A DNA stretch of 64,000 nt from an uncultured Elusimicrobia bacterium (GTDB lineage: Bacteria > Elusimicrobiota > Elusimicrobia > UBA1565 > UBA9628): the NCBI GenBank assembly GCA_903881545.1, contig CAIRTQ010000033.1, positions 1,267 through 65,266 of the forward strand. The letters are read 5' to 3'. Within the stretch, counting starts at the first letter, position 1, and each line of letters opens with the position of its first letter. Under the pieces are notes generated by a model, which did not search any database, had not been told where the DNA came from, and was given only the letters and a program-made list of their open reading frames with translations. The position numbers were made by a program, and so were the translations under genes. Shown here in pieces: positions 6,975 through 63,918 of this stretch.

Positions 6975-8648
6975 ATGGTTATGACCGGTAGTCAGATGGG
7001 CAATCCCGTGGGCGCTTCGCGTATCGACAAACGCCGATTACGAACCTGGCTGCTCTGCTTGAGCTTTCTGGTTCCCTATCTATCATTGAATCTGCCGCGG
7101 CTGCATCTCCCAGGCCTGTGCGCTGAAGAAGCCTGGGCCGCCCTCCCGGCCTTGAGCCTGCTGGGCCGCAAGGATTTGCGTGCGGGGCATTTTATTTCTA
7201 TCGGCGGCATTGCCTTCCCCGTGAGCGAGACGGCCTATCATGGCGCTCTGGCCAGCTATCTTCTCGCGCCGTTTTTGTGGCTGTTCGGAACGACGGTCGA
7301 AGCCATACGCTGCTATTCGGTCTGTATCGGAGCTTTGACCTTGCTCATGGTTTTCCTATTCAGCCGGAGGTTGCTTAACGACGATCGCGTGGCCTGGGGA
7401 GCCACCTTCCTGCTGGCGATATCCCCGGCTTACATCTCCGGCACGCGCCTCGGAGTCTATTATGGCGTTGCAATCGTATTGTTCCAAATGGCCGCGCTTG
7501 CAAGTTTCGCCTCCTGGCATGCCATGGGCGTTAGGCGGCATCTTTACTTGGGTTGCTATTTATTGGGATGCGCATTGGCCTGCTATTCTTTTTCGATCTT
7601 GTATATTATCGCGATTATCCCGTTCGGATTTTTTTTCTTTTGTAAGACACACCAGCCCATCCGCGTCGCGGCTTTTTGTCTAGGATTCTTCTTATTGGGA
7701 ATGTTCCCGTTCAATCTTTACCTCATGTTGGATGGCAAACCTTTCTGGGATTGCCTGCGGACGCTGTATCCTCACTCATATGCTCGGTTCGGTCCGTTCG
7801 GGGGCTCCGCTATCTTGTGTATTCTGGCTAGGCGTTGGAATCAGATAATGGACCTTGTGGCCAGGGATCCTCTCACCAAGGAGGTGTTTCCTCTTTCCGG
7901 GGGTGTATCCACCTGTCGCGCAATGCGGCTCTTCTTTTTTGGCGGGTTGTTATGGCTGCCCATCTCCTGCTGCCTGCGCCGGCAGACATTCCCGCGTGGG
8001 TGCAAGATTTTCTTGCTGCTTTATGCGGTCTTTGCTTTTCTTGTGAGTCCTTTGGGCGGGCTCACTTTTCATGTGGCCCATCTGTTCTCGATATTGCCCA
8101 TCCTGATTATTATTATGGTAACAGCTCTTGTCGAATTCGTGGACACCGCGCTCGGCGCTCTCAGCCTGGGGAGCCGGACCCTGCTGATCGTTTGCGCCGG
8201 ACTCTTTTTGGGTTGGGTAAATCCTCCACGGATGCCTTCCCTTATTAAGACGATGCGCGGCGTGTCCCCGTGCTTTACCGATGGCGTTTATGGCATGGCC
8301 GACTGGCTTCGGCTCAACACTGGACATGACCGACTCCTGCCGGATTATTGGCTTTATCCGACGGTCGACTTCTTGACCGGCCATGATCTCAACGGTCGGC
8401 TGGAGTCATTGGCAGTGGAACCCCCCAAGGCCAGCGATCTGTTGAGAGTGGATGTGGTGGTGGACTATCTGGCGATTGGTTCCGAAGCCTCCACCACCGG
8501 CTGTGGTCTTTTCAATGTGCCGGTTTATCGATTGATAAGGTCCGCGGAAGCGCGCGGCGAATTGAAACGGTTGAAGACCTTCTACAACCTAGATGGGACG
8601 CCCATGATGGCCGCTTACAAAGTCATGCACCACGGCCCCGGTCGGTAG
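6975..8648 (+). CDS. GT-C fold membrane glycosyltransferase (ArnT/GT83/GT39-like)
   Basis: PGLCAEEAW loop, YHGALASYLLAPF..LFG, LLAISPAY and many TM segments; visibly more AT-rich than the upstream core genes. Confidence 0.75.
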   Translation: MVMTGSQMGNPVGASRIDKRRLRTWLLCLSFLVPYLSLNLPRLHLPGLCAEEAWAALPALSLLGRKDLRAGHFISIGGIAFPVSETAYHGALASYLLAPFLWLFGTTVEAIRCYSVCIGALTLLMVFLFSRRLLNDDRVAWGATFLLAISPAYISGTRLGVYYGVAIVLFQMAALASFASWHAMGVRRHLYLGCYLLGCALACYSFSILYIIAIIPFGFFFFCKTHQPIRVAAFCLGFFLLGMFPFNLYLMLDGKPFWDCLRTLYPHSYARFGPFGGSAILCILARRWNQIMDLVARDPLTKEVFPLSGGVSTCRAMRLFFFGGLLWLPISCCLRRQTFPRGCKIFLLLYAVFAFLVSPLGGLTFHVAHLFSILPILIIIMVTALVEFVDTALGALSLGSRTLLIVCAGLFLGWVNPPRMPSLIKTMRGVSPCFTDGVYGMADWLRLNTGHDRLLPDYWLYPTVDFLTGHDLNGRLESLAVEPPKASDLLRVDVVVDYLAIGSEASTTGCGLFNVPVYRLIRSAEARGELKRLKTFYNLDGTPMMAAYKVMHHGPGR

Positions 8649-8807
8649 CAGGCTACTGGTAGAATCCGTTCCAAGAGAGGGCTCGCGATAGTTCGCCTAC
8701 AGCCGATCTGTGAAGCAGGGCGGAAAGGCCGATTCCACAGGTAAAGCGAAGGATTGCGTTTGCATCGCGACTGGCACAGGCAGGCTGCGCCTATCTGCGC
8801 CAAGCCA

Positions 8808-9257
8808 TTATGGGACTTTCCAGTAAAACGCACAGTACGACCGCGTTGCTGGTTTCTTGTCTTTCTCGTCGAAGGGGTAGGCTTTGCATCGGGAGGGCTG
8901 GCTGCCCCACTTCAGGCACTTGGTTCTGTCAAGTGGGTCAAGACACCGCCTGTGCCTGAGGCGGGCCAGCCAGTCAAGATCGCAGCATCCATGGCGGCCA
9001 CACACCCCTTTTCGCCGTGCCAGTTGTCGTTGAACATATCCTTTGCGAAATCTATAGTAATACCAGTGGCGTATTCGGGTAACGGCAGTCCTGATTCCCT
9101 GGTTCAACATCTGAAGGCAATTCGCCCCTTGGTTTGGTCCGAAGAACGCAGCCTTCATGAATTCGGGTGCTCTTATCCGACCGTTCATCCATAATAGTAA
9201 TTTTCGGGTATTCTCCTTTCTGAGAAGGTGGTGGAGGTGATTTTGGGCCGATTTCAT
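8808..9257 (-). CDS. YkgJ-like cysteine-cluster (Fe-S/Zn-binding) protein
   Basis: G-x-C-x-x-H-G-C-C ... C ... C ... QPSRCKAYPF ... C-x-F-Y-W pattern. Confidence 0.6.
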   Translation of the reverse strand: MKSAQNHLHHLLRKENTRKLLLWMNGRIRAPEFMKAAFFGPNQGANCLQMLNQGIRTAVTRIRHWYYYRFRKGYVQRQLARRKGVCGRHGCCDLDWLARLRHRRCLDPLDRTKCLKWGSQPSRCKAYPFDEKDKKPATRSYCAFYWKVP

Positions 9258-9535
9258 GGAGTTTATGGTAGGATATGTTGTGGGTTAAGTAAGCCAACTC
9301 ACGACGACAAGCTGCGTGCCACGAGCAGAAGGCCCCACTCCATGCTTCCGTTGATCCTGGTATTCGCGTATCGTGATCATGCCAGATTCATCGACCATCG
9401 AAACCTGCGTTTCTCCGTCGGGCCCCAGTGCCATTTCATGCTGAATTCACCCGCTCGATTGGGAGAAGACCCTCTTCCTGCCCTTTTCAGCCCTGGCATG
9501 CCTTGCGGCGCCTGCGGAGTCGGGGGGATTCCGCA

Positions 9536-10984
9536 ATGAGAGTGGCCCTGGTGAATCCGCCGATGGGGACCGTCTATTCATCCGTCAGCGCGTCTTTGGG
9601 CAAGAGCCCGCCGGTGGGGCTCGCCTCGCTGGCCGCCTATGTCAGAGCGAAGGGGTTCGAGGTGCGGGTGCTCGACGCCGCGGTGATGGGCGCCGGTTTC
9701 GATGACATCGAGCATTTCCTGCGGGCGGGCTTTGATGTGGTCGGCGTGGGCGCAATGACCCCGTCGTTGGACTGCTCCGCCAAGGTGTTGCGGTTGGCCA
9801 AGCAGGTCAACGGTGGATGCGTCACCGTCATGGGCGGCCCGCATCTGTCAGCCGTGCCCGAGGAGACCCTGCGCGCCTTGCCGGAAGTCGATTTTGGAGT
9901 CGTGGGCGAAGGCGAGGTGACCTTCCATGAGCTCCTGGATTGCCTGCGCAACGGCGGGGATGCATCGGGCATCCCCGGGCTTGTATTCAGGGACGGTGGC
10001 CAGGTCCGGCGAGGGCCCCGACGGGCGCTGATCGCAGATCTCGATTCCTTGCCCCTGCCGGCATACGATCTTCTGCCCATGGATCGATATTCCATGAAGA
10101 TCCACCATGTCTGGTCTTCGGAGAAGGTGGCGCTGCGCCCATACACTGATCTCTTCACCTCCCGGGGCTGCCCGTACCGATGCACTTTCTGCGCCTCGCA
10201 TGTCGTGTGGGGGCGGACGGTCCGATTTAGGAGCGCCGAGCACGTCCTTCGGGAAATCGATTTCTTGGTCGCCAGATACGGCGTGAAGGCCATCGAGATA
10301 TGCGATGACCTGTTCACTATCAACAAGCCCCGGCTCCATGCGATCCTGGCCGGGTTGGCGCAACGGAAAAGCCCCGTGAGTTTCACCTGCATGTCCCGGG
10401 TGGACACCGTCGACCGGGAGACCCTGGAGATGCTCAAGGCGGCGCGGTTCCGGCTGATAAGGTTTGGCGTCGAATCCTGCTCGCAGCCCATCCTGGACGC
10501 GATGCGCAAGGGCACCACCGTAGCGGATGTCCGAAGGGCTTTCCATCTGGCCAAGGAGGTTGGCTTGGCGGCATCGGCCTGCGTTATGATCGGCTATCCG
10601 GGGGAGACCCGTGAGACGTTCGCAGCCACTTTGCGCGTCCTCCGCGAGATAGATCCGGTCGCCGTCGACTTCTTCATCACGATCCCGATTATCGGCAGCG
10701 AGCTGTACGAACTGGCGCGCCAGAACGGCTACCTGGCCAATGAGGACTGGAGCAATTGGACTTTGATACCCAGGAGCCCGGCACTCGGCACGCCGCAGCT
10801 GCCGGCCGCGGAATTGAAGGGGTTGCTGAAAACCGCCTATCTCCGATTCTATTTCCGGCCGCGGTTCATTCTGCGCTGCCTGCGGCGGATCTATTCCTGG
10901 GAGAACCTAGTCCTCTTGGCCAAAGGGTTCAAGGCGCTCTTGAGCGTCATGTTGAGCCGGCGGCAGGGCTCCCCGCCCGCCTGA
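9536..10984 (+). CDS. Cobalamin-dependent radical SAM protein (class B methyltransferase-like)
   Basis: RVALVNPP..PPVGLASLAAY, VMGGPH, VGEGE, TSRGCPYRCTFC, FGVES, IGYPGET. Confidence 0.93.
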   Translation: MRVALVNPPMGTVYSSVSASLGKSPPVGLASLAAYVRAKGFEVRVLDAAVMGAGFDDIEHFLRAGFDVVGVGAMTPSLDCSAKVLRLAKQVNGGCVTVMGGPHLSAVPEETLRALPEVDFGVVGEGEVTFHELLDCLRNGGDASGIPGLVFRDGGQVRRGPRRALIADLDSLPLPAYDLLPMDRYSMKIHHVWSSEKVALRPYTDLFTSRGCPYRCTFCASHVVWGRTVRFRSAEHVLREIDFLVARYGVKAIEICDDLFTINKPRLHAILAGLAQRKSPVSFTCMSRVDTVDRETLEMLKAARFRLIRFGVESCSQPILDAMRKGTTVADVRRAFHLAKEVGLAASACVMIGYPGETRETFAATLRVLREIDPVAVDFFITIPIIGSELYELARQNGYLANEDWSNWTLIPRSPALGTPQLPAAELKGLLKTAYLRFYFRPRFILRCLRRIYSWENLVLLAKGFKALLSVMLSRRQGSPPA

Positions 10985-11100: not shown

Positions 11101-11907
11101 TCATTTCGCCGGGGCGGCGCCGCATTGGCGTTCATAATACTGCACCACTTCCGCGACCGGACCCTGCGCCGCGACCGCCCCGTGCTCCAGGCAAATCGCG
11201 CGGGAGCAATTATTCTTAATGAGAGCCATGCTGTGAGAAGCCATGACCGTGGTCGTGCCTTGCCTCAGGAGTTCGTTCATCTTGGCGAGACATTTGGTCT
11301 GGAACGGGGTGTCGCCCGTCGCGAAGACCTCGTCGGTCAAGAGGATGTCGATGTCCGAATGCAGGGCTGTGGCCAGGGGGACTCGCGACGTGAAACCCGT
11401 TGATAATTCGCCCAGCCGTGAATAGAGATAGTCCTCCAACTCTCCGAAAGCGACGATGGCGTCGAAGCGCTGGCGCAGGGTGGCGCGCGACATTCCGCAG
11501 AGGGCCGCGGTTAGGCGGATGTTGTCGATGACCCGCAGTTCGCTGAAGAGGCCGGAGCCGATGGAGAAGAATGTGCTGATGCGACCGTGAGTGCAGAGCG
11601 TTCCTTCCGTCGGGACCAGGACGCCAGCGAGCATGCGCAGAAAGGTGGTCTTGCCAGAGCCGTTGCGGCCGATGACTCCGACACACTCCCCTCTACGAAT
11701 CTGCAGGTCGATTCCCCGGACCGCCCATAACGGGCGAGTGTTGGTGATTCCGCTGCACCATGCCAGCATCTGCGAGAAAAACCGCGCGTCCGTCTTTGTG
11801 CCGATCTGGAACCGTTTGCCCAGCCCCACGGCGCTGATGGCGATCTGGTCGTCGCCGGAAGGTGGGCGCGCGGTCCCGACGGCGCCGGCAGAGCCCGCTA
11901 CCGGCAA
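11101..11907 (-). CDS. wzt: Polysaccharide ABC exporter, ATP-binding subunit (Wzt/TagH-like, no C-terminal carbohydrate-binding module)
   Basis: Walker A GRNGSGKT, LSTG signature variant, ILLTDEVFATGD..F..KC, ASHSM. Confidence 0.9.
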   Translation of the reverse strand: MPVAGSAGAVGTARPPSGDDQIAISAVGLGKRFQIGTKTDARFFSQMLAWCSGITNTRPLWAVRGIDLQIRRGECVGVIGRNGSGKTTFLRMLAGVLVPTEGTLCTHGRISTFFSIGSGLFSELRVIDNIRLTAALCGMSRATLRQRFDAIVAFGELEDYLYSRLGELSTGFTSRVPLATALHSDIDILLTDEVFATGDTPFQTKCLAKMNELLRQGTTTVMASHSMALIKNNCSRAICLEHGAVAAQGPVAEVVQYYERQCGAAPAK

Positions 11908-11919: not shown

Positions 11920-12693
11920 CTAGGACAGAACATAGTCGCTCAACCGCCGCTTCTGTTTATTGAACACGGCGTAACCGATACCCGCGACCAGAAGGGCTAA
12001 CGCCGTTAACGCCGCCATGTGTCGCCACGCGGGGAACCTCCCTTCCAATAGGCAATCCCGCGCCAGCCCGATGATATGCGCCATGGGATTGAAGCGGAGG
12101 AACCTTTGCCGATCCGCGCCGATGGCGGCGGCCGAATAGAAGACTGGGGTCAGGAAGAATCCTGCGGTCGTGATGATGCTCCAGATTCGTAGGAAATCAA
12201 TGAAGCGCAACGCTAGAACGGACAACCCTAAGGCCAGGCCGGTGACGAACAGGAGTAGGACCGCGTCAATGAGTGGAAACGTCAGCCAGGACAGGCGGGG
12301 AACGGCCCCAAGGGCAATCAAAAAGACGAGCATCAAGACCAGCTCGATGGCATGCGAGATGGCCACGCTGCAGACGGTGGTAAGCACAAATAACTCCCGC
12401 GGCATGATGAAGTTCATCATGATACTCCGGCGGCTATTGAGGCTGCCCATGCCGGTGGTTGTCGCGGTGGTGAATAGGTTGAATTGGACCACGCCGATGA
12501 GGAGATAGCCGGGGTAGTTGGCCATGAATCCACCCATCCACCGGGTGAACAACATGTACAAGACGAGGAACATGAGTAAGGGGTTGAGCAGCGTCCAAAG
12601 GAAGCCCAGCAGGGTTGATTGCTCACGCAGCTTCCATTCGCAACGCGTCAGCTCGCGAAATTGATTGGCGTAGACGGCAAAATTGTCGATCAT
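11920..12693 (-). CDS. wzm: Polysaccharide ABC exporter permease (Wzm/TagG-like)
   Basis: LGFLWTLLNPLLM, FFLTPVFY, FNPMAHII..ARDCLL; about six TM segments. Confidence 0.92.
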   Translation of the reverse strand: MIDNFAVYANQFRELTRCEWKLREQSTLLGFLWTLLNPLLMFLVLYMLFTRWMGGFMANYPGYLLIGVVQFNLFTTATTTGMGSLNSRRSIMMNFIMPRELFVLTTVCSVAISHAIELVLMLVFLIALGAVPRLSWLTFPLIDAVLLLFVTGLALGLSVLALRFIDFLRIWSIITTAGFFLTPVFYSAAAIGADRQRFLRFNPMAHIIGLARDCLLEGRFPAWRHMAALTALALLVAGIGYAVFNKQKRRLSDYVLS

Positions 12694-13745: not shown

Positions 13746-13846
13746 GGGTGCACCAAGACCGTGCCTATGATGATAAGACATAGTGGGTTGCAGCCGCAAT
13801 GCTCTCCGACGGTAATGGTTGGCGCGCAAATCTGCTATCCTGGTAA

Positions 13847-15706: not shown

Positions 15707-15804
15707 TTCGTCTGCGAACGGGCCATTTTGCTACCATAGCTTTCGAGAGGAGGCCCGCATTGGGGCCGGACAGGGGTGGTCTGCGGCCTCCGCTCAGGGC
15801 AACG

Positions 15805-21510: not shown

Positions 21511-21529
21511 GACTGTTAGGGAGATGATG

Positions 21530-22486: not shown

Positions 22487-22510
22487 CGGCCGCCGGCATT
22501 GCCGGCCCTT

Positions 22511-23782: not shown

Positions 23783-23922
23783 GCTAAAGTACCGACGGCC
23801 TGGCGGATGGGAGCGAGGGCGCGAGGGAGTGGGGGGGGCTCGATGAAATGCGACGCCAGTTATCCGGGAGGGGCGGCCCGTAGCCGTTGCGCCCATTGAC
23901 CTCCGGCAATCCAGAGCGGCAA

Positions 23923-27541: not shown

Positions 27542-27558
27542 GCCAATCTTGGGGCCCA

Positions 27559-31003: not shown

Positions 31004-31084
31004 TCCTTTAGCACTTACGCGCAGATCATGTCGCGATGTTTGTGCCCAGTGCTTGCCCGGGAGGCATCCCAAAAGGAGAAACCC

Positions 31085-32050: not shown

Positions 32051-32051
32051 G

Positions 32052-33793: not shown

Positions 33794-33797
33794 AACC

Positions 33798-56887: not shown

Positions 56888-59214
56888 GCGCTCCGCTGCA
56901 CCGAGTCGTAGCAAGGATGATATTCGCGGTGAAAATCCTTGCCGTTGCCCATATAATCGTTGTGTGACAGCCGAGTCCGGCAGCGGTGGTCGGTCCATAC
57001 GGCCGTATCCCGGCAGCTGGAAAAGGTATTGCCTGTCGCGCGCAGGCGCGATCTTCGTAATGCGAGTACGCCGTTCTCATTGTCGGTGAACACCGCTCCG
57101 TCCATTCGGATGCGGCAATCATCCTCGGCCATGATGGCGGTCTTGGCTTGGCGGCTGAACGATATCCCCCGTAGGCGCGCCCGCGAGGAATGGCTGCAGC
57201 GGATCGCCTCGCGGTTATCCTGCCAGGAGCCACCCATGGCCTCGATCTGCGAGGAATTCTGAGTCCATACGCCGGTGCCGTTGCCTTCGATTCGGACCCC
57301 GCAAAGGAGGGCCCGCGACCGTTGCAGAGTCTCCATGCCCACGTTGTTGCGTTCCAAGCGGCAGCCCCTGAGGCGTAGACGCGCCCGGCCCGAGGCAAAG
57401 ATTGCGGACTGGCCAGCGTGATCGAGCCAACGGCTCGAACGGCCGAGGAAGGTCGAGTGACCGAGCATCGTCGCCGCTGAGCCGCGACAGCGGGAATAGG
57501 TCCCGCAGAAGTCGGATACGACGGCGCAACCTTCAGTGAGAATGTCCGTGTTGCAATCGCAGGCCCGGCAGCGCCGCAGGCGCACGCGGGCATCGTCGTG
57601 CGCCCAGACTGCGGCCTTGCTGGATTCAGTGAAGGAGCAGTCATGCAAGACAGCGGAGGCGCCTCCTCCCCAAGCGGTGGCGCCCTGTCCGCCTTGGAAA
57701 TCACAATGGCGAAACTCGGCCCGGCAGAAGTCCACGCCCAGAGCGGCAAAGTCGGCAGCGGGATCGAAACGGGCGTGGCGGATGCTGGCCCGGGAGCGGC
57801 CGAGCAGTACGATGCCGCCCCAGGGGGCCCCAGTGAAGTGCACTTTGTGGCCCGGTTCGCCGGCGACATCCAACTCTCCATAGACCATTAGCGCGCAGCG
57901 GCCGCGGCGGGGGAGCTGAGCCCTGGTCCCAAAAGCCAACCGGTCTGCCGCCCAGCCCGCAGCGGCTGTTGTTTCCGACCGGACCAGCGTCCCCGGCAAG
58001 ATGCTCAGCCTGCATCCGGCCGCAATCACCATGGTTTCGGAAAGAGTGACCTCACCTTCCCAAACGATGTCGCGGCCGCGATGCGGAGCGGGACATCCAG
58101 CGTCCAGCCGTAGCCATGTGCCTTCAATCCGAGCCCGCAAGGCGCGGCAACGGCGCGGGAAGGCCAAGCCACATGCGCGATACGCTACAGTAAGGAATCT
58201 AAGCGTATGCCGGATGGCGGGCCGCCGCAGAGCAATCCATGCTTCTTTGGCCCGGTCGCGGATCCAGGCGGCGGTCTGGAGGGTGCGGTCGCGCAGAAAG
58301 CGATAGGCGTCGCGTAGAGCAATGCAGGCATCGAATATCCGGTCTCGGGTCCAGGCGCCGGACTGGAGACAGGCGTCCCGCAGGGACCGGTAGGCATCGC
58401 GCAGAATAATGCAGGCATCGAATATCCGGTCTCGGAGCCAAGCCCGGGTCTTCAGAAAACTGTCGCGCAGGAAACGGCAGGCATCAATGGTGCGGTCGCG
58501 AGTCCAGGCGCAGGTCTGAAGAAAACGGTCGCGCAGGAAGCGGTAGGCGTCGCGCAGGGCCAGTCCGGCGTCAATGATGCGGTCGCGGGTCCAGGCGGCG
58601 GTCTGGAGGGTGCGGTCGCGCAGGAAATGGCATGCATCAATGATGCGGTCGCGAGTCCAGGCGCAGGTCTGAAGAAAACGGTCGCGCAGAAAGCGGTAGG
58701 CGTCACGTAGTGCTAGTCCGGCGTCGATGATGCGGTCGCGGGTCCAGGCGGCGGTCTTCAGGCAGAACCCCCGGATTATTTCGGCGCATAGCAATCCAAG
58801 CACGACCGTTGAGACAATCCCTATGCCGCAGTGGCAGAGCCTACGGAATGGGCCTTGCAGGCTTATCCAGCGCCCTTGTCCACGCCGGAAGGACTCGACG
58901 CGGCCCGCGATGCATGAGCTGGGAACCGCCTTGTCCAGGATGATGGACCGATCTCCCTTCGTCCAAAAGACATGACCACCCGTACGGTCGGCCTTCCAAA
59001 CGATGCGATGCGCCACGAAATTGCGGCGCTCTATATCGACATAGACGACGATGTCTCCCAGGAGCAATTGGTTGGGAGCGATGCGGCGAAAGCGCAGGGC
59101 GTCTCCGGATCGCAATAGAAACCGCATGGAGTTTCCGGAGAACGGCATCTCTCGCTCCGCGTAGTGGCCACGCGGGTCTTGTGGCTCATCCGAATATATA
59201 GGAGCGGTGGTCAT
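56884..59214 (-). CDS. Multidomain protein: S26 signal-peptidase-like domain + TM helix + amphipathic repeat + beta-helix (NosD-like)
   Basis: GNSM...GD...AHRIV...TKGD (Ser/His type S26), a hydrophobic helix, WTRDR repeats, then beta-helix coils (NNVG, NGTG, NREA, NENG). Confidence 0.75.
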   Translation of the reverse strand: MTTAPIYSDEPQDPRGHYAEREMPFSGNSMRFLLRSGDALRFRRIAPNQLLLGDIVVYVDIERRNFVAHRIVWKADRTGGHVFWTKGDRSIILDKAVPSSCIAGRVESFRRGQGRWISLQGPFRRLCHCGIGIVSTVVLGLLCAEIIRGFCLKTAAWTRDRIIDAGLALRDAYRFLRDRFLQTCAWTRDRIIDACHFLRDRTLQTAAWTRDRIIDAGLALRDAYRFLRDRFLQTCAWTRDRTIDACRFLRDSFLKTRAWLRDRIFDACIILRDAYRSLRDACLQSGAWTRDRIFDACIALRDAYRFLRDRTLQTAAWIRDRAKEAWIALRRPAIRHTLRFLTVAYRACGLAFPRRCRALRARIEGTWLRLDAGCPAPHRGRDIVWEGEVTLSETMVIAAGCRLSILPGTLVRSETTAAAGWAADRLAFGTRAQLPRRGRCALMVYGELDVAGEPGHKVHFTGAPWGGIVLLGRSRASIRHARFDPAADFAALGVDFCRAEFRHCDFQGGQGATAWGGGASAVLHDCSFTESSKAAVWAHDDARVRLRRCRACDCNTDILTEGCAVVSDFCGTYSRCRGSAATMLGHSTFLGRSSRWLDHAGQSAIFASGRARLRLRGCRLERNNVGMETLQRSRALLCGVRIEGNGTGVWTQNSSQIEAMGGSWQDNREAIRCSHSSRARLRGISFSRQAKTAIMAEDDCRIRMDGAVFTDNENGVLALRRSRLRATGNTFSSCRDTAVWTDHRCRTRLSHNDYMGNGKDFHREYHPCYDSVQRSA
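58222..58746 (-). repeat. Intragenic tandem repeat, units of 87/66/87/66/87/87 bp plus a partial unit (29/22-aa WTRDR... units)
   Basis: The first Trp codon is at 58746 and the seventh at 58266 (480 bp apart). Units 1 and 3 are identical in amino-acid sequence (WTRDRIIDAGLALRDAYRFLRDRFLQTCA). Confidence 0.92.
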
Positions 59215-59389: not shown

Positions 59390-59845
59390 TTACTTGGAAG
59401 ACCCCGTCAGATTCTGCCGGAATGAGTTCTTCAGCAATCGCCAAAGCTGGCTGCAATTCACTCCGGAGGCCCGGAGCGTCCCGGCGACCTCATCGCCCGC
59501 TTTGAAATCCAGATTGGCGCGCGCCTCGGTCCCGCTCTTTCCGTTCTGGAGATCGACATGGCTTGACCGCCAATGGAGGTCGCGAATGTTGTGCCGCAAC
59601 GGCAGTAAGTTGAGGTCGTCGATTGAGAGCCAATCGCGGGCCTCGATGAGGTGGCTCGGTGAGAAGAGCCACAGGCTTTCGTGGACGCGCGCGCCGTCGC
59701 GGTTGATATACTCAGAAAAGAAAAGGTCTTCGATCGGTTCCGGGGAGATGCCTTCCGCATATTCCAGGACTTGCTGTAATCTTTGGTGCACATCCTTGGC
59801 GACGACTCCCAGCGAACGGAGATATTCCTCTGGATTGGTTTTCAT
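59390..59845 (-). CDS. Hypothetical protein
   Basis: 151-aa ORF with AAGGAG RBS, AT-rich upstream spacer and globular-looking composition; no motif recognised. Confidence 0.7.
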   Translation of the reverse strand: MKTNPEEYLRSLGVVAKDVHQRLQQVLEYAEGISPEPIEDLFFSEYINRDGARVHESLWLFSPSHLIEARDWLSIDDLNLLPLRHNIRDLHWRSSHVDLQNGKSGTEARANLDFKAGDEVAGTLRASGVNCSQLWRLLKNSFRQNLTGSSK

Positions 59846-60029
59846 GTTGAAGTCTCCTTAAATGAATTTAAATTATTATACAAATTAGCAGGATTCTGCG
59901 CCAAGCGTAGACTTGTCGCTACACGAACATCGTGGAAACGCCCAACTTGGTGGTCAATTTGAATTTCTTCAAGATTGGTTTTTTATAGATTTTCTTTGGC
60001 TCGGGTTTCTTCTTCATCTGGCGCTCCTT

Positions 60030-61217
60030 CTATCTTTGTGATAAGAAAGCGATCAGGTGGTCGTCTTTCAACTCCTGCAGCAAGGTGTCGATGTCTTTTC
60101 GTGCTTCCTCTGATTGCGCCGCGCCGGATGCTTCGACTTCTTTGATTATCTCCTCCTCGGTCTTTCCTTCCGACAAAAGCTCCCAGACCCTCGCGCCGAC
60201 GCCGTGCAACTGATAACCGAAGCCGCTCTGCAGGTTGACGGCCTTGACGTCCCCGGTCCTGCCCCACCGCCAAACGAGCCGCTTCGGAACGAACGTCAAA
60301 GGGGCGAAAGCCCGCCTTTTCCCAAACCATTCTTCCAGAGAGCCGTATATCCAGGTGAGCAATCCCATGAAGGAAAAGATCAGCCGGAAAGAATAGACGC
60401 TCAGGTTCTTGGCGCGCTCCACTTGGAAGACGCTTCTTCCAGCCAGAAGGGCATTCTTGAACGTGTCGGCCAGCATGCGCCGCCCGGACAGCGACAGACC
60501 GATTATGCCTTCGTATTTTCTTATGAGGCAGTACTGCCAATAGACATAATGGAGGAATACTTCCGGCAATTGCGCGATCTTATCGCGATGTTTGTGAAAG
60601 ACGACGGCGTTGCGCATATGCCGCAGTTGATGTCCCTTCAGATTGATGCGCCATATGAGGTCGGTGTCTTCTCCTGCGGCGAAATATTCGTCGAAAGAAC
60701 CGACCTGGCTGAATAGTTCTCGGCGGCAGGCTAGGTTGCAGGTGGCGAACAGTGGCTCGGTGAAATAGTTCTCTTCGTTGATGTCATCGTTCCCGTTGTT
60801 CTGGTTCTGGTGCTTTTGGAACCAGTAGAAGGCCTTCTCGATGGTGTTGGCAGGCCGGTAGGATCGCGTGCTTCCGCCGCAGCCGCCGACATTCGGGGTG
60901 GAGAATCCTTTGACCAAATTCTTTATCCAGTGCCTGCCTACCACGCAATCGGCATCCGTGAAGGCGATGATGTTCCCGGAGGCGATCTTCAGGCCTGCAT
61001 TCCGGGCTGCGCTGCGGCCTTTTCTGGGCTCGAATACATAGCGTACCGGGTATCTTTTTATGATTTCGGCGCTCGAATCCGTCGAGCGATTATCGATGAT
61101 GATGAATTCCAGAAGTTCCTTGGGATAATCAAGCGCCATCAAGGAATCCAGGCAGAAAGGCAGCATCTCCTCCTCATTATAAACAGGAATTAGGATGCTG
61201 ACGGTCGGCAGGGGCAT
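60030..61217 (-). CDS. GT2 glycosyltransferase fused to a C-terminal PqqD/RRE domain
   Basis: SILIPVYNEE, IDNRSTD, AARNAG, AFTDAD, GEDTDL; tail YQLHGVGARVWELLSEGKTEEEII...EARKDIDTLLQEL...LI. Confidence 0.88.
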   Translation of the reverse strand: MPLPTVSILIPVYNEEEMLPFCLDSLMALDYPKELLEFIIIDNRSTDSSAEIIKRYPVRYVFEPRKGRSAARNAGLKIASGNIIAFTDADCVVGRHWIKNLVKGFSTPNVGGCGGSTRSYRPANTIEKAFYWFQKHQNQNNGNDDINEENYFTEPLFATCNLACRRELFSQVGSFDEYFAAGEDTDLIWRINLKGHQLRHMRNAVVFHKHRDKIAQLPEVFLHYVYWQYCLIRKYEGIIGLSLSGRRMLADTFKNALLAGRSVFQVERAKNLSVYSFRLIFSFMGLLTWIYGSLEEWFGKRRAFAPLTFVPKRLVWRWGRTGDVKAVNLQSGFGYQLHGVGARVWELLSEGKTEEEIIKEVEASGAAQSEEARKDIDTLLQELKDDHLIAFLSQR

Positions 61218-61310: not shown

Positions 61311-62708
61311 CTAGTGGACCGTGGGAAAGCCGATGGTGCTGCACATCAGGCTCTGCTGCAAGAGTTCATACAACGGCTTTCCCCACTTCCTGATGAAGAT
61401 GTCTCTATTCGTTTTTCTATAGTCCAGCAAGACTCCGGGCGCATATCCTTTCGAGCCGTAATGATGGATGAACACATCATTGACGCAAAAGGAGCGGAAC
61501 CCGGCGATCCTTGCCCGCAGGCAGTAATCGTAATCCTCAAAAGGTCCCCAGGCGAACTGTTCGTCCAAGAGCCCGACGGCTTTGACCACTTCCCTCTTGA
61601 TGAGAAGGCAAAAGCCCGTTAGTGCGAAGACTTCGAACCAATCGCCCAGATGCGCTAGGTGGCGCATCCGCGACCAGCGGATCATGTCTGCCAGAGTGCG
61701 ATACGGGCCGGGGGCTGTCATTTGCACCCCGTAGATGGAATTCGTGCGGGGGCCTACCAATCCGATGGCGCGGCTGCTCTGCGCGCAGGCAATCATCCGG
61801 TCAAGCCACAAGGGCGTGACCACGGTGTCGTTATTGAGCAAGAGTAGGTATTTGCCCCGGGCCTTCTTGATTCCCTGGTTGCAACCCGCGGCAAAACCGC
61901 GGTTATCCGGGTTAAGGATGACCGTGGCTCCGGGGACGGATTCCAGATACTTCGCGGTGCCGTCCGTCGAGCCATTGTCTATCAGCAGGAGCTCGTAGGG
62001 TTTATGGGTGTATTTCACGATACTCTTGATGCAGCGCTTGGAATACTGCAGGCCGTTGTGATTGAGGATTATAATGCTGGTTAAATCATTCTTGGCATGC
62101 GTTTCCGGTGTCGGCCCTATGTCTGCGAATAAGTCCGGCAACCGCTGTAGGGCGAGCCGGCCCGAAGGCTTGCTCAGCAGTGGGACGGTCTCTACGCGAA
62201 GCGTGGGGTTTTCCTGGTGCAGGAGGCCCTTGTCTTCTGCGGTCTCGGTGATGACAAGATCCGCCTGCGCGTACGCAGTCAGAAGCTGGAGGGCGAACCC
62301 CTCCTGCTGAAACAGGCGGGAGAGCGCAGCGCGGGGCAGACGGTGGTAGATGTCCAAAGTCCCGGCAAAGACCACGATCTTGCTATGAGGGGCGAGGGCC
62401 CTCACATCCCGCATCAAGGCGCTCATCTGTACGGATTCTCTGACAAAGATGGCGACGGCTGCGAAGGCATGCCGCAGAAGATTCCGGTGCAGTAGGCGTC
62501 GCATGTCGGGGCCATCAAGCAGGCGTATCCCCGCGTCGCTCAGCTGACGTCTGTATGCCGGATTATTGAAGAACGAATGCAGCGGCGAGATGAGATAGAC
62601 GTCGTAGCGACGCAGCAGCATCCTCGCTGCGGCTTCGATGTGATCGGCCGGCTCCGAGGCAAGAAGCAGTATTTTGGCTTTCGTGGCACGCCGTTTCGAT
62701 GTTTTCAT
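61311..62708 (-). CDS. GT2 glycosyltransferase with N-terminal GT-B-like half-domain
   Basis: TSIIILNHN, IDNGSTD, FAAGCNQG, LLNND, GLLDEQF...EDYDYCLR; paralog of 42333-43127. Confidence 0.88.
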   Translation of the reverse strand: MKTSKRRATKAKILLLASEPADHIEAAARMLLRRYDVYLISPLHSFFNNPAYRRQLSDAGIRLLDGPDMRRLLHRNLLRHAFAAVAIFVRESVQMSALMRDVRALAPHSKIVVFAGTLDIYHRLPRAALSRLFQQEGFALQLLTAYAQADLVITETAEDKGLLHQENPTLRVETVPLLSKPSGRLALQRLPDLFADIGPTPETHAKNDLTSIIILNHNGLQYSKRCIKSIVKYTHKPYELLLIDNGSTDGTAKYLESVPGATVILNPDNRGFAAGCNQGIKKARGKYLLLLNNDTVVTPLWLDRMIACAQSSRAIGLVGPRTNSIYGVQMTAPGPYRTLADMIRWSRMRHLAHLGDWFEVFALTGFCLLIKREVVKAVGLLDEQFAWGPFEDYDYCLRARIAGFRSFCVNDVFIHHYGSKGYAPGVLLDYRKTNRDIFIRKWGKPLYELLQQSLMCSTIGFPTVH

Positions 62709-62709
62709 T

Positions 62710-63918
62710 CTAGGCGATTTGGTCCGTCATCCGAGGCCGGACATTGCCCCGGGATAGTTCCGAGATCAGGTGTTCAACATCGGCGCGGGCGTCTTCCCGG
62801 CTGACCCCATATTCATTCTGGATCGCGTCGGCGATGGCGGCGGGGGCATCCCCGTACGCCCAGCGCTCCCAGATCCGGCCGGCGGCTCCTTCGAGATGGT
62901 AACCGTTCTTGTTCACGAGATCCAATATCAGGACATCTCCGGCGCTGTCCCAGCGCCATATCACCGGCGCCGGGGCGAAACCCAAGGGCGTCATCTTGAT
63001 CCTCTGGCCCAGGGTGCCTGCTGCCCAGCCATAAGCTGCGGTCGCCAGATGCATCGCGGTAAGCGCGGCGGTGAGAAAATCGAAGCGGCTTTGCTCAAAA
63101 CGCCCTCGCCACGCCTGCCGCACGGCGGCGCACAGCTTGGCGCCCGTCTTGCGCGCTGCGGCGCCCCAGGCGAAGGACATCCCGACCACGGGTTCGTATT
63201 TTTTGATGAGGCGAAAGTGGTCGTAGGCATATCGGACGCCTATCTCCACCAGAGCGCTCCAGGCCGCCGGCCGCTTATGGTAAACAATGGCGTCCTCGAC
63301 GTAATTGAGTTGGTGGCCTTTGAGGTTGATCCTCCAGAGCAGGTCGAGATCCTCGCTCGCGAAGAGCCTTTCGTCAAAAGGGCCGACCTCATCGAGGATG
63401 CGGCGGCGGCAGGCCATGTTGCTCGCGGCGAAGAGCGTCCCGACGAAGTAGTTCTCGAAACAGGTTTCAGCGCTCTCCGGAAAGCCCTGGTCTTCCTGTT
63501 CGAAGAATCTCTCAATCCAGGTGGTCGGTCGGAAGGATGCGTTCCTGCCGCCGCAGCCGCCTATGCCCGGCTGTCGAAAGCACGGCATGAGTCTCCGCAG
63601 CCAGTCCCTGTCGACTACGGCGTCAGCGTCGGTGAATGCGATGATTTCTCCGGTGGCCGCCTTCAGTCCGGTGTTGCGGGCGCGGGCCCGCCCCTTCCTA
63701 CCCTCGAAGACATAGCGCACGGGGAACCCCCGGATGATTCCAGCGCTGCCATCCGTCGAATTGTTGTCGATCACGATGATCTCAAGCAGCTTTTTGGGGT
63801 AATCGAGCCGCATGAGAGAGTCCAGGCATAAGGGCAGCATCGCTTCTTCATTGTGCGCCGGGACGATGACGCTTACGGAAGGCAGGGCATCGGTCATGGC
63901 ATGGGGTGGATTCGTCAC
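62710..63918 (-). CDS. GT2 glycosyltransferase fused to a C-terminal PqqD/RRE domain (paralog of 60030-61217)
   Basis: SVIVPAHNEE, AFTDAD, SEDLDL; tail YHLEGAAGRIWE...IADAIQNEYGVSREDARADVEHLISEL. An alternative ATG start lies at 63897. Confidence 0.88.
   Translation of the reverse strand: MTNPPHAMTDALPSVSVIVPAHNEEAMLPLCLDSLMRLDYPKKLLEIIVIDNNSTDGSAGIIRGFPVRYVFEGRKGRARARNTGLKAATGEIIAFTDADAVVDRDWLRRLMPCFRQPGIGGCGGRNASFRPTTWIERFFEQEDQGFPESAETCFENYFVGTLFAASNMACRRRILDEVGPFDERLFASEDLDLLWRINLKGHQLNYVEDAIVYHKRPAAWSALVEIGVRYAYDHFRLIKKYEPVVGMSFAWGAAARKTGAKLCAAVRQAWRGRFEQSRFDFLTAALTAMHLATAAYGWAAGTLGQRIKMTPLGFAPAPVIWRWDSAGDVLILDLVNKNGYHLEGAAGRIWERWAYGDAPAAIADAIQNEYGVSREDARADVEHLISELSRGNVRPRMTDQIA

What the first reader, a model, noticed from the sequence alone, without database searches (positions are those of the whole stretch)
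6975..63918. ~57-kb radical-SAM mega-cluster (27 genes, 29 rSAM domains) coupled to glycosylation, export and peptide-recognition modules
Seen: 27 CDSs with CxxxCxxC motifs in a few internally expanded families, mostly with overlapping stop/start codons. They are interleaved with Wzm/Wzt, GT2/GT4/GT-C enzymes, two GT2-PqqD fusions, an HprK-like kinase and an S26 peptidase domain, between tRNA-Glu and a yciH-like gene. Known: B12-rSAMs methylate unactivated C or P; twitch/SPASM rSAMs act on sugars (BtrN type) or peptides (PqqE/MftC type); Wzm/Wzt export lipid-linked glycans. From memory, unverified here, rSAM-rich loci have been reported in groundwater Elusimicrobia alongside a nitrogenase paralog, but no nif-like gene is in this window. 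Inference: an uncharacterised pathway building a heavily radical-tailored surface glycan or glycopeptide that is exported and transferred to proteins or lipids by the GT-C enzymes. The product cannot be read from the sequence.
Basis: partly seen in the sequence, partly recalled or inferred. Interest (0 to 1): 0.92.

Follow-up and report, generated by a model that had tools for sequence, protein, structure and literature searches.

The report
Radical-SAM-rich glycopeptide gene cluster
A 57-kb gene island in an uncultured Elusimicrobiota bacterium packs 27 radical SAM enzyme genes around sugar-adding enzymes, an exporter and a previously unnoticed 32-residue peptide gene, and it most likely builds a heavily modified, sugar-carrying peptide of a kind not yet described.

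Summary
There are 27 CDSs with 29 CxxxCxxC/PF04055 domains between tRNA-Glu and a SUI1/yciH gene. With them are Wzm/Wzt, GT2, GT4 and GT-C genes, two GT2-PqqD fusions, a PEPCK/HprK-fold P-loop kinase and an S26-like domain.

The 29 domains are 19% of the 150 radical SAM matches listed for this 2.94-Mb genome. They fall into a few old paralogous families, and only one family passes an NCBIfam cut-off.

A core of these genes is syntenic in other Elusimicrobiota MAGs, where it is patchily distributed.

New here is a 32-aa ORF at 59919-60017(-), 12 bp downstream of a GT2-PqqD gene. It belongs to a family of basic peptides with a lasso-like [YW]xxPxL leader motif. These peptides lie in or beside such clusters in at least 7 genomes, next to PqqD, kinase, Wzm/Wzt, GT2 and radical SAM genes. 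A strain variant of the ORF carries 5 synonymous changes and one I-to-V change.

Best reading (about 0.55): an RRE-dependent, RiPP-like pathway making a phospho/glycosylated, radical-SAM-tailored peptide. The product is unknown.

The parts
6631..6707 (+). tRNA-Glu(CTC); left boundary
   Evidence: ARAGORN; Rfam
6975..8648 (+). GT-C glycosyltransferase (PMT_2/PMT), 7 predicted TM segments
   Evidence: Pfam; hydropathy
9428..10984 (+). B12-binding radical SAM, HpnJ/BchE-like (215 bits, below 578 cut-off)
11101..11907 (-). ABC ATPase, Wzt/TagH type
   Evidence: Pfam; NCBIfam
11920..12693 (-). ABC-2 permease (Wzm type)
   Evidence: Pfam
12690..13874 (-). P-loop kinase of PEPCK/HprK fold (real product probably 351 aa)
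   Evidence: homologues sit beside the peptide gene in 7 of 27 loci
13847..15706 (+). 9-TM protein with C-terminal TPR (GT-C-like by architecture only)
   Evidence: Pfam; hydropathy; homologue next to the peptide gene in G021
15760..16761 (+). family A twitch radical SAM
16449..18140 (+). family C radical SAM/SPASM (start probably 16758)
18317..19276 (+). family A radical SAM
19286..19789 (+). 167-aa protein, no family; homologue in G016 cluster
19849..21510 (+). B12-binding radical SAM
21467..22486 (+). family A radical SAM
22499..23782 (+). family E, N-terminal twitch radical SAM (NF033640, 356 bits, above 170 cut-off)
23887..24804 (+). family A radical SAM
24899..26674 (+). family E radical SAM with C-terminal TPR
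26687..27640 (-). family A radical SAM
27559..28692 (-). family D radical SAM/SPASM
28689..29672 (-). family A radical SAM (modelled, pLDDT 89)
29867..31003 (+). family C radical SAM/SPASM
31028..37819 (+). run of seven radical SAM genes: A (31028), A (31977), A (32858), A (33651), C (34634), A (35848), A (36623)
37854..40723 (+). two B12-binding radical SAM genes (37854-39239, 39236-40723); best NCBIfam hit is RiPP C-methyltransferase, 145 bits, below 282 cut-off
40954..41862 (+). 302-aa protein with lipoprotein-like N-terminus, no family
42225..43127 (+). GT2; paired with the next gene in 6 other clusters
43124..44272 (+). radical SAM/SPASM, single copy (s1)
44273..45343 (+). GT2 with 3 C-terminal TM segments
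   Evidence: homologue beside the peptide gene in 3 of 27 loci
45363..46670 (-). family D radical SAM/SPASM
46508..48475 (-). B12-binding radical SAM (conserved core)
48472..49830 (-). radical SAM/SPASM, single copy (s2; conserved core)
49835..50575 (-). 246-aa small beta-helix protein (conserved core)
50576..54664 (-). triple fusion SPASM-rSAM / B12-rSAM / SPASM-rSAM; three separate genes in G016, G019, G021
54481..55641 (-). about 386-aa protein, no family (conserved core)
55637..56998 (-). GT4 glycosyltransferase (conserved core)
56884..59214 (-). S26-like N-terminal domain, one TM segment, right-handed beta-helix (NosD/CASH type)
59390..59845 (-). 151-aa ORF with coding-like GC pattern, no family
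59919..60017 (-). 32-aa precursor-like peptide, basic N-terminus, YKKPIL motif, hydrophobic C-terminus
60030..61217 (-). GT2 fused to C-terminal PqqD/RRE domain
61311..62708 (-). 200-aa N-terminal domain plus GT2
62710..63918 (-). second GT2-PqqD/RRE fusion; right end of cluster

Best explanation
The island is a greatly expanded RRE-dependent, RiPP-like biosynthetic gene cluster of an Elusimicrobiota bacterium.

Proposed mechanism, all steps inferred:
1. A small basic peptide (window 59919-60017, minus strand) carries a lasso-like [YW]xxPxL leader motif. PqqD-type recognition domains bind this motif; here they are fused to two GT2 glycosyltransferases.
2. The short C-terminal core is glycosylated by these GT2s and then by GT2/GT4 enzymes.
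3. The core is possibly phosphorylated by the PEPCK/HprK-fold kinase.
4. The peptide, its sugars or both are tailored by B12-dependent and twitch/SPASM radical SAM enzymes (methylation and other radical chemistry).
5. The product is exported by the Wzm/Wzt-type ABC-2 transporter.
6. The leader is removed by the membrane-anchored S26-like/beta-helix protein.

Shown by tool results: the gene content, the conserved synteny, and the existence, conservation and neighbourhood of the peptide gene.
Not shown: every enzymatic step and the product.
For: 1. Gene content: 27 radical SAM genes with 29 domains sit with GTs, an ABC-2 pair, a kinase and two PqqD fusions.
2. Single operon: the minus-strand run 63918 to 45363 is tightly packed. 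It reads GT2-PqqD, GT2, GT2-PqqD, peptide, 151-aa ORF, S26/beta-helix, GT4, 386-aa protein, triple rSAM, beta-helix, rSAM, B12-rSAM, rSAM.
3. The peptide looks like a real gene. It has a GGAG motif upstream and GC3 of 0.70. A strain variant in a lake-water metagenome contig has 6 differences in the ORF: 5 synonymous and one I10V. A gene caller elsewhere produced exactly that variant (P0307).
4. The same peptide type follows GT2-PqqD homologues in two distant genomes of 33% and 50% GC. The type-1 peptide profile (E<=1e-10) and the GT2-PqqD protein (E<=1e-50) match the same 3 of 401 phylum genomes.
5. Compact operons in those two genomes. The G176 operon is 15 kb; the G145 one is similar. They hold peptide, PqqD, B12-rSAM (4 and 2 copies), GT2s, an S24/S26-like protein, GT4 and a family A rSAM; G176 also has a SPASM rSAM. 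The G176 operon ends at FliG.
6. A second peptide type with the same motif and a C-terminal Tyr lies in or beside the clusters of G002, G019, G021 and G022.
7. A joint peptide profile hits 44 of 401 genomes, and 22 of these are among the 40 with family A rSAMs (odds ratio 18.8; kin are not independent).
8. Within 1.5 kb of the peptide in 27 loci: PqqD in 8, kinase in 7, Wzm/Wzt in 2, TM-GT2 in 3, GT2-PqqD-like in 3, family A in 2, and no hit in 9.
9. Stand-alone PqqD genes occur in 6 related clusters.
10. Type-2 peptides weakly hit lasso-leader models (E 0.0006-0.06, below cut-off), and the PqqD domains best match lasso PqqD chaperones.
11. Predicted complex of the RRE part (residues 296-395) with the peptide: weak support. 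The score is 0.44 against a best control of 0.01. That mark was reached by 58 of 80 solved complexes and 2 of 110 mismatched pairs. At 0.60 or under it was reached by only 7 of the 80 solved and by both mismatches. The runs agree in at least 90% of contacts, and partner pLDDT is at least 56. My own alignments were used, and RRE-leader complexes have been solved, so the pass may reflect likeness to those.
12. HPr-kinase homologues phosphorylate lasso precursors, and a phosphoglycosylated lasso peptide is known (PMC8498205, passages read).
13. RRE-glycosyltransferase fusions have been noted as possible new RiPP systems (PMC7470986 and PMC12710340, passages read).
Against: - No enzyme-substrate link is shown.
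- The same-genus genome G002 keeps the radical SAM core at 49-74% identity but has no GT2-PqqD and no type-1 peptide. Its operon starts at the S26/beta-helix gene, and its type-2 peptide lies about 30 kb away, beside the kinase.
- 18 of 40 family-A genomes gave no peptide hit, and 22 of 44 peptide genomes have no family A. The peptide/PqqD/kinase set and the radical SAM arrays can therefore exist apart.
- G176 and G145 also carry larger family A arrays on other contigs, away from the peptide.
- Weak peptide hits (E 1e-3 to 1e-2) may include chance matches.
- The family A, B12 and SPASM enzymes showed no Pfam PqqD domain of their own.
- GT4, GT-C, beta-helix and Wzt/TagH-like genes are equally typical of glycan pathways.
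- Family A's fold matches are generic, with TM about 0.5 to CteB, SkfB, anSME and MoaA.
- The core region is very short for 29 radical SAM domains.
Confidence: 0.55

Rival explanations
1. Two systems lie side by side. The radical SAM array with GT4, GT2, beta-helix proteins, Wzm/Wzt and GT-C enzymes builds and exports a radically tailored envelope glycan or glycolipid. The peptide/GT2-PqqD module at 59.9-63.9 kb is a separate small RiPP system that happens to adjoin it.
For: - The Wzt ATPase is closest to galactan and teichoic-acid exporters (146 and 145 bits).
- GT4, GT2 with TM tail, PMT_2 GT-C and NosD/CASH-type beta-helix proteins are present.
- G002 has the core without GT2-PqqD.
- The peptide and family A occur separately in many genomes.
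- G176 and G145 have further family A arrays away from the peptide.
Against: - No sugar-nucleotide synthesis, Wzx/Wzy, initiating phosphoglycosyl transferase or O-antigen ligase gene was found by Pfam in the window.
- The peptide gene sits inside one tightly packed minus-strand run with 7 radical SAM domains.
- In G176 and G145 the peptide shares a compact operon with B12, SPASM and family A radical SAM genes.
- Wzm/Wzt, the kinase, the TM-GT2 and family A genes lie within 1.5 kb of peptide genes in other genomes.
- PqqD genes recur within the radical SAM clusters.
Confidence: 0.25
2. The peptide is only a scaffold. As in mycofactocin or PQQ, radical SAM/SPASM enzymes remodel its C-terminal residues. 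A peptidase releases a small molecule, and MftF-like GT2 enzymes glycosylate it into a redox cofactor or metabolite.
For: - Both GT2-PqqD proteins best match the mycofactocin glycosyltransferase MftF (159 and 158 bits).
- Type-2 peptides end in an aromatic residue, mostly Tyr, as the mycofactocin precursor does (recalled).
- SPASM enzymes and PqqD chaperones are present.
Against: - The MftF scores are below the 280-bit cut-off, and all MftC/PqqE scores are far below theirs.
- The window's own peptide ends in MFV, not Tyr.
- An exporter, a kinase and a membrane peptidase fit a secreted product better.
- No partner oxidoreductase was seen in the window.
Confidence: 0.12
3. The cluster is an artefact: a chimeric contig, or a chance run of Cys motifs in a GC-rich genome.
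For: - The genome is a 158-contig MAG.
- The Logan contigs laid on 44001-64000 are short (3.4 kb or less), so long-range contiguity is not independently shown.
- Gene order differs from G002 around the duplicated family D genes.
Against: - All 27 genes hit PF04055.
- Composition is even across the region.
- Blocks of 10 or more genes are syntenic in 6 other genomes.
- Four runs of one study cover all 30 bins of the last 20 kb, mostly at 99% identity or more, and single contigs bridge 45029-46151 and 53357-56768.
Confidence: 0.02

Closest known systems
Lasso peptide clusters with HPr-kinase homologues (paeninodin, pseudomycoidin)
   Same: - Small precursor with a YxxPxL-type leader motif.
- PqqD-type RRE whose best NCBIfam hits are lasso PqqD chaperones.
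- P-loop kinase next to the precursor, sugar transfer, and an ABC exporter (PMC8498205 passages).
   Different: - No lasso cyclase on the contig and no B2 transglutaminase-type peptidase in the genome.
- The window's core has no acidic residue for a ring.
- The kinase is not a recognised HprK family member (E=0.0037).
- Lasso clusters do not carry dozens of radical SAM genes (recalled).
Proteusin/polytheonamide-type RiPPs (B12 radical SAM C-methyltransferases, radical SAM epimerase)
   Same: Best NCBIfam hit of the main B12 family is 'RiPP maturation radical SAM C-methyltransferase' TIGR03975, at 145 and 164 bits. Both have many radical modifications on one ribosomal peptide.
   Different: - Scores are below the 282-bit cut-off.
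- The leader is not of the nitrile-hydratase type (recalled).
- GTs, kinase and Wzm/Wzt are present here.
- There are 27 radical SAM genes here rather than about three (recalled).
Mycofactocin system (MftA-F)
   Same: A GT2 closest to MftF, a PqqD chaperone, SPASM radical SAM enzymes and a small peptide.
   Different: All scores are below the equivalog cut-offs. The PqqD is fused to the GT2. The gene set is different and an exporter is present.
RRE-glycosyltransferase fusions flagged by RRE-Finder
   Same: PF00535 fused to an RRE, proposed as uncharacterised RiPP systems, some with radical SAM genes (PMC7470986, PMC12710340; passages read).
   Different: Those papers' figures and supplements were not seen, so I cannot say whether this family is among them. 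No precursor family or radical SAM array of this size is mentioned in the passages read.
Radical-SAM-rich loci beside group VI nitrogenase paralogues in groundwater Elusimicrobia (bioRxiv 10.1101/765248)
   Same: Same phylum. This genome has 2 NifH-like and 4 NifD/K-like matches interleaved with radical SAM genes on contig C98. The paper reports up to 13 radical SAM genes near the paralogues (passages read).
   Different: No nif-like gene is in this window. This locus has GTs, an exporter, RRE domains and a peptide gene. The paper's passages do not mention glycosyltransferases (0 occurrences).
Wzm/Wzt-dependent glycan export
   Same: Adjacent ABC-2 permease and ATPase. Nearest named ATPases are galactan Wzt/RfbE and TagH.
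   Different: The scores are below the cut-offs. Pfam found no Wzt C-terminal carbohydrate-binding domain. Homologous pairs lie directly next to the peptide gene in G014 and G405.

Membership tests
Radical SAM superfamily (PF04055) | CxxxCxxC cluster motif and a Pfam match over the gathering score | tested here: met
   27 of 27 genes have the motif and a PF04055 hit. 26 are over 29.5 bits and one scores 26.7.
B12-binding (class B) radical SAM | N-terminal PF02310 domain plus PF04055 | tested here: met
   5 single genes (9428, 19849, 37854, 39236, 46508) and the middle part of the triple fusion. No NCBIfam equivalog cut-off was reached by the 3 tested.
SPASM/twitch radical SAM | C-terminal (or N-terminal) Cys-rich auxiliary cluster domain, PF13186 | tested here: met
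   PF13186 in 11 genes. Family A has 5 conserved C-terminal Cys and a twitch/SPASM-like fold, but only 1 of its 12 members has a PF13186 hit, and that one sits at the cut-off.
NF033640 N-terminal twitch radical SAM | score over the curated cut-off of 170 bits | tested here: met
   22499-23782 scores 356.5 bits. 24899-26674 is 43% identical to it but was not itself scanned against NCBIfam.
RRE-dependent RiPP gene cluster | short precursor peptide gene next to the modifying genes | tested here: met
   59919-60017(-). It is conserved in position and sequence in G176 and G145, and a strain variant shows 5 synonymous changes plus 1 conservative change.
RRE-dependent RiPP gene cluster | RRE (PqqD-like) domain | tested here: met
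   PF05402 at 44.7 and 38.3 bits, over the 23.4 cut-off, at the C-termini of two GT2 proteins.
RRE-dependent RiPP gene cluster | RRE binds the leader | tested here: inconclusive
   Predicted complex gave weak support only: 0.44 against a best control of 0.01.
RRE-dependent RiPP gene cluster | core peptide carries the modifications | not testable with these tools
   Needs mass spectrometry of the product.
Lasso peptide cluster | lasso cyclase (Asn-synthase-like) in the cluster | tested here: not met
   7 PF00733 matches in the genome, none on contig C33.
Lasso peptide cluster | B2 leader peptidase (Transglut_core3) | tested here: not met
   0 matches in the genome, which is 93% complete.
Lasso peptide cluster | lasso leader or precursor model over its cut-off | tested here: not met
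   Type-1 peptides gave no hit. Type-2 peptides gave 13-20 bits, below the cut-offs of 19 and 33.
Mycofactocin system | MftF and MftC equivalog scores over their cut-offs | tested here: not met
   MftF 159 and 158 bits against 280. MftC 58 bits or less against 265.
HprK/P-related kinase | match to an HprK family model; P-loop kinase fold | tested here: inconclusive
   TIGR04355 at 16.4 bits against a cut-off of 200. No Pfam hit. The fold matches PEP carboxykinase at TM about 0.55, with no HprK chain among the ranks listed. That HprK and PEPCK share this fold is recalled.
Signal peptidase S26 | match to an S26/S24 model; Ser plus Lys/His catalytic motifs | tested here: inconclusive
   No Pfam hit for residues 1-250. 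SEC11A at E=0.095. The G176 homologue hits S24 at E=0.001. The SGNSM and AHRIV motifs were read by eye and their meaning is recalled.
Wzm/Wzt glycan exporter | ABC-2 permease plus ATPase pair; equivalog score | tested here: inconclusive
   The pair is present. The best equivalog scores 146 bits against a cut-off of 400.
Nitrogenase-paralogue-linked radical SAM locus (Elusimicrobia group VI) | nifH/D/K-like genes adjacent | tested here: not met
   None in the window. They lie on contig C98.

The most novel reading that the evidence does not exclude
This is a new class of ribosomal natural product. A core of roughly 10-15 residues, recognised through a lasso-like leader by GT-fused RRE domains, is phospho/glycosylated and then worked on by up to 29 radical SAM domains from at least five old paralogous families. 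To my knowledge (recalled) that is the highest radical SAM load of any single biosynthetic locus. The system is modular across Elusimicrobiota: a small peptide/PqqD/kinase kernel onto which lineages have stacked radical SAM arrays.
Probability: 0.35. Interest if true: 0.9.

Novelty: new variant of a known kind. Interest (0 to 1): 0.8.

Why it matters
If the reading is right, four things follow.
1. The locus links a very large set of uncharacterised radical SAM enzymes to a defined, genetically encoded substrate. The set includes the 12-member family A, which source names place only in Elusimicrobiota and Omnitrophota. That link would make their chemistry testable: co-express the peptide with single enzymes and read the mass shifts.
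2. The 15-kb operon in G176 offers a tractable minimal version.
3. It would help explain why some Elusimicrobiota devote an unusual share of a roughly 3-Mb genome to radical SAM genes. This genome has 150 or more domains, against 9-127 first-look candidates in 30 relatives.
4. It would add a precursor family that gene callers mostly miss. Only 10 representatives were found among 1.84 billion proteins.

Tried and rejected
I used an alignment of s2 orthologues instead.
- Rfam at gathering threshold found only the tRNA. No riboswitch was found.
- phmmer against PDB sequences gave nothing for the kinase or for the 386-aa protein.
- Pfam at E<=0.1 gave nothing for 19286-19789, 40954-41862, 54481-55641, 59390-59845 or the first 250 residues of the beta-helix protein.
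- The 207-aa plus-strand ORF at 59238-59861 was dropped as a gene. Its GC pattern is atypical, and the 151-aa minus-strand ORF fits better.
- I looked for paralogues of the window's peptide in the genome and in the first set of relatives by tblastn and found none. A regex scan then found the second peptide type. That regex was written after seeing the first peptides, so it is tuned to them.
- Sequencing runs: no RNA holder was listed, so nothing can be said about expression.
- The Logan contigs laid on 44001-64000 are too short to prove long-range contiguity.
- Fold search for family A gave only generic twitch/SPASM matches and no substrate class.
- A lasso peptide reading was considered and rejected. 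A link to the nitrogenase paralogues was considered and rejected, because those genes are on another contig.
- Literature searches found no description of this cluster or peptide family in the held library. The searches were 'Elusimicrobi' + RiPP + radical SAM (2 papers, both unrelated, listing only), a five-term RiPP/PqqD/GT search, an HPr kinase/PqqD search, STM4011 (1 unrelated paper) and a six-term search. Supplements and figures of the RRE-Finder papers could not be seen and may show related GT-RRE clusters.

Full report
**1. Observation**

The window is G000:C33:1267-65266, part of a 68.9-kb contig. The genome is a 2.94-Mb, 158-contig MAG, 64% GC and 93% complete.

I picked ORFs by length and third-position GC. 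Twenty-seven of 48 candidate CDSs contain CxxxCxxC, giving 29 motifs in all. A 1362-aa protein at 50576-54664(-) carries three.

Pfam finds PF04055 in all 27. Twenty-six are above the gathering score, and 32858-33793 scores 26.7 bits against 29.5. There are three matched stretches in the 1362-aa protein. B12-binding domains occur in 6 proteins and SPASM domains in 11.

A six-frame scan of the whole genome lists 150 PF04055 matches from 157 first-look candidates. Twenty-nine of them lie on C33, all inside the window. So 2.2% of the genome holds 19% of the listed matches.

- tRNA-Glu.
- An ABC-2 permease/ATPase pair.
- A PMT_2 GT-C.
- GT2, GT4 and two GT2-PqqD fusions.
- A SUI1/yciH-like gene just beyond the right edge, followed by esterase, SIS, hydrolase and NDK genes. 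These close the cluster.

Left of the tRNA lie a Dpy19-like GT-C, a 6-TM protein, a TPR protein and ribosomal protein L1.

Three claims are weaker than written:
- The 'HprK-like kinase' is a P-loop protein with a PEP-carboxykinase-like fold, and its match to an HprK-related model is only marginal.
- The 'S26 domain' rests on marginal matches and on motifs read by eye.
- Junctions are tight rather than mostly overlapping. With starts chosen to minimise gaps, 12 of 38 overlap and 25 of 38 have gaps of 13 bp or less.

**2. Anatomy of the radical SAM set**

All-against-all BLASTP sorts the 27 genes as follows.

| Family | Members | Notes |
|---|---|---|
| A | 12 | About 300 aa, CNYRCxYC motif, 29-49% identical to each other |
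| B12-binding | 5, plus the middle third of the triple fusion | 9428 is the outlier |
| C | 3 | SPASM type |
| D | 2, plus the last third of the fusion | SPASM type |
| E | 2 | Twitch domain at the N-terminus |
| Singletons | 2 | s1 at 43124, s2 at 48472 |

Ten representatives were scanned against NCBIfam. Only family E passes a curated cut-off: NF033640 at 356 bits against 170. Family A is nearest to the uncharacterised STM4011 subfamily (82 bits against 200). The main B12 family is nearest to RiPP C-methyltransferases (145-164 bits against 282). Gene 9428 is nearest to HpnJ (215 against 578). The SPASM genes are nearest to assorted maturases, far below their cut-offs. So the domains do not map to characterised cofactor pathways.

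Family A has five conserved C-terminal cysteines. Its model is confident (pLDDT 89.1). The best PDB matches are CteB, SkfB, anSME, MoaA and PqqE at TM about 0.5. That marks it as a twitch/SPASM enzyme but does not give a substrate.

Its relatives in the 5.8-billion-protein collection number 74 at E<=1e-5. Source names call them only 'radical SAM protein', and the organisms named are Elusimicrobiota and Omnitrophota.

Genome-wide by phmmer at E<=1e-20:
- Family A has 16 copies, 12 of them here.
- Family D has 3, all here.
- Family E has 53, only 2 here.

**3. Organism and conservation**

Loci found with an alignment of s2 orthologues come from 14 records. Ten are titled Elusimicrobia or Elusimicrobiota MAGs, two are 'bacterium', one is a Deltaproteobacteria MAG and one is Anaerolineales.

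The genome carries 2 NifH-like and 4 NifD/K-like matches on contig C98, interleaved with radical SAM genes. This fits the group VI paralogue loci described for groundwater Elusimicrobia (bioRxiv 10.1101/765248, passages read). Those genes are not in this window.

Among 30 relatives of the same order, first-look radical SAM candidates range from 9 to 127, against 157 here.

The family A profile finds arrays in 11 of 31 genomes of the order. It finds none in four same-genus genomes that are 82-99% complete. Across the phylum sample it finds arrays in 40 of 401 genomes and 25 of 123 genera. The island is therefore widespread but patchy.

tblastn of the window's proteins against fetched loci shows a conserved core in G002, G014, G016, G019, G021 and G022 and in L031 and L032. 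Its order is:
- S26/beta-helix
- GT4
- the 386-aa protein
- the three parts of the fusion, as separate genes in G016, G019 and G021 and fused only in G000 and G002
- the small beta-helix protein
- s2
- B12-rSAM
- family D
- two or three family A genes

Wzm/Wzt, the GT2+s1 pair, the TM-GT2, the kinase and the TPR membrane protein recur nearby.

**4. A precursor-like peptide**

Scanning intergenic gaps gave a 32-aa ORF at 59919-60017(-). It lies 12 bp downstream of the GT2-PqqD gene 60030-61217 and has a GGAG motif upstream and GC3 of 0.70. Its sequence is MKKKPEPKKIYKKPILKKFKLTTKLGVSTMFV.

Close GT2-PqqD homologues occur in 3 of 401 phylum genomes at E<=1e-50, G000 included; only 4 candidates were scored per genome. 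In both other genomes, G176 (50% GC) and G145 (33% GC), a homologous 32- or 37-aa ORF follows the GT2-PqqD gene. The three-sequence profile finds exactly these three genomes at E<=1e-10 and 6 of 401 at E<=0.01.

In G176 the operon runs as follows and ends at FliG:
- GT2-PqqD
- peptide
- stand-alone PqqD (65 bits)
- B12-rSAM
- GT2
- three more B12-rSAM genes
- GT2
- S24/S26-like protein with TPR
- SPASM rSAM
- GT4
- family A rSAM

G145 has a shorter version.

A regex for the motif then found a second peptide type in or beside the clusters of G002, G019, G021 and G022. An example ending is ...KKYSKPKLTRHGELSRTALAHSY. Only two short chance-like hits appeared elsewhere in G000.

A joint 7-sequence profile hits 44 of 401 genomes at E<=0.01 and 15 at E<=1e-5. 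In 26 of the 27 fetched loci a small ORF shows a basic N-terminus, [YW]xxPx[LIV] and a 12-17-residue tail that often ends in an aromatic residue.

Neighbours within 1.5 kb of the peptide in those 27 loci:

| Neighbour | Loci |
|---|---|
| PqqD | 8 |
| Kinase | 7 |
| TM-GT2 | 3 |
| GT2-PqqD-like | 3 |
| Wzm/Wzt | 2 |
| Family A rSAM | 2 |
| S26/beta-helix and TPR protein | 1 |
| Nothing recognised | 9 |

Stand-alone PqqD genes lie in six related clusters.

Twenty-two of the 44 peptide-positive genomes are among the 40 family-A genomes. For the 15 stricter peptide hits the figure is 11 of 15. The odds ratio is 18.8 and Fisher p is 9e-14, but relatives are not independent and the weak hits may include noise.

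In four lake-water metagenome runs of one study the last 20 kb is covered throughout. One contig carries a variant of the peptide ORF with five synonymous changes and one I10V change. That product is on record as P0307.

Only 10 representatives of the family were found among 1.84 billion proteins. NCBIfam has no model for it. Type-2 members touch lasso-leader models below their cut-offs.

**5. Mechanism**

The parts match the logic of RRE-dependent RiPP pathways:
- a short precursor
- PqqD-type recognition domains, fused or free
- tailoring enzymes
- a peptidase-like protein
- an ABC exporter

I propose the following. The RRE domains bind the [YW]xxPxL leader. The fused GT2 domains and the further GT2/GT4 enzymes glycosylate the core; a Ser/Thr is conserved in type 1. 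The kinase may phosphorylate it. The B12 and twitch/SPASM radical SAM enzymes modify the peptide, its sugars or both. The ABC-2 pair exports the product, and the membrane-anchored S26-like/beta-helix protein removes the leader.

HPr-kinase homologues that phosphorylate lasso precursors, and a phosphoglycosylated lasso peptide, are precedents (PMC8498205, passages read).

A predicted complex of the RRE part with the peptide gave weak support only. The score was 0.44 against a best control of 0.01. That mark was reached by 58 of 80 solved complexes and 2 of 110 mismatched pairs. At 0.60 or under it was reached by only 7 of the 80 and by both mismatches. The runs agree in at least 90% of contacts and partner pLDDT is at least 56. 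My own alignments were used, and likeness to solved RRE-leader complexes could explain the pass.

None of the enzymatic steps is shown.

**6. Evidence against, and rivals**

- G002 keeps the core without GT2-PqqD. Its peptide lies beside the kinase, about 30 kb from the core.
- Many genomes have the peptide set without family A, or family A without a detected peptide.
- G176 and G145 hold further family A arrays away from the peptide.
- The GT4, GT-C, beta-helix and Wzt/TagH-like genes would suit a glycan pathway.

So a two-system reading, an envelope glycan island next to a small RiPP module, keeps about 0.25. A peptide-derived cofactor in the manner of mycofactocin keeps about 0.12. An artefact keeps about 0.02.

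It is not a lasso cluster. No cyclase is on the contig, no B2 peptidase is in the genome, and the window's core has no ring-forming acidic residue.

**7. Novelty**

RRE-glycosyltransferase fusions have been flagged as possible new RiPP systems (PMC7470986, PMC12710340, passages read). Their figures and supplements were not available to me.

Five full-text searches found no description of this cluster, of the peptide family or of family A.

The logic is that of a known kind, RiPP biosynthesis. The combination of GT-fused RRE, kinase, Wzm/Wzt-type exporter and up to 29 radical SAM domains appears to be new, as does the scale. I file it as a new variant of a known kind, with interest 0.8.

Noticed in passing
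G000 contig C98 (about 1.7-14.5 kb; L079): Two NifH-like and four NifD/K-like matches are interleaved with radical SAM genes. This fits the 'group VI nitrogenase paralogue' loci reported for groundwater Elusimicrobia. A PqqD gene lies on the same contig at 36.3 kb.
   Followed up: partly
G000 contigs C22, C126, C31, C2, C39, C135, C117, C62 and others (L078 for C22): Family E (N-terminal twitch radical SAM, motif CNLRCRTC) has 53 copies genome-wide by phmmer at E<=1e-20. Many sit in tandem arrays of 540-1080-aa proteins; C22 alone has 7. Only 2 are in the window. Their role is unknown.
   Followed up: partly
G000 contig C115 (about 7.1-10.8 kb; L080): A further PqqD gene lies next to three radical SAM genes. 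This may be a separate RiPP-like locus.
   Followed up: no
window 8649-9427: A 779-bp stretch between the GT-C gene and the first B12 radical SAM gene has lower GC and no convincing ORF or Rfam match.
   Followed up: partly
window 2703-4439 and 4391-6574: Just left of the tRNA lie a 6-TM protein with a DD motif in its first loop and a Dpy19-like GT-C. Counting the PMT_2 protein and the TPR/9-TM protein, up to four GT-C-like membrane proteins flank the left end.
   Followed up: partly
window 26687-29672 versus 45363-46670: Family D is duplicated (57% identity). The A-D-A block sits apart from the rest of the core, whereas in G002, G016, G019 and G021 the core is contiguous. This points to a rearrangement or an insertion of about 15 kb of radical SAM genes in this genome.
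   Followed up: partly
L028 (MAG titled Deltaproteobacteria), L035 (Anaerolineales): Homologues of the s2 radical SAM gene (52% and 38% identity) occur in MAGs labelled outside Elusimicrobiota. In L028 the small beta-helix gene is present as well. This could be gene transfer or mis-binning.
   Followed up: no
L074 (G196:C35:1-2257): Two tandem copies of the peptide gene lie next to a PqqD gene and a radical SAM gene.
   Followed up: no
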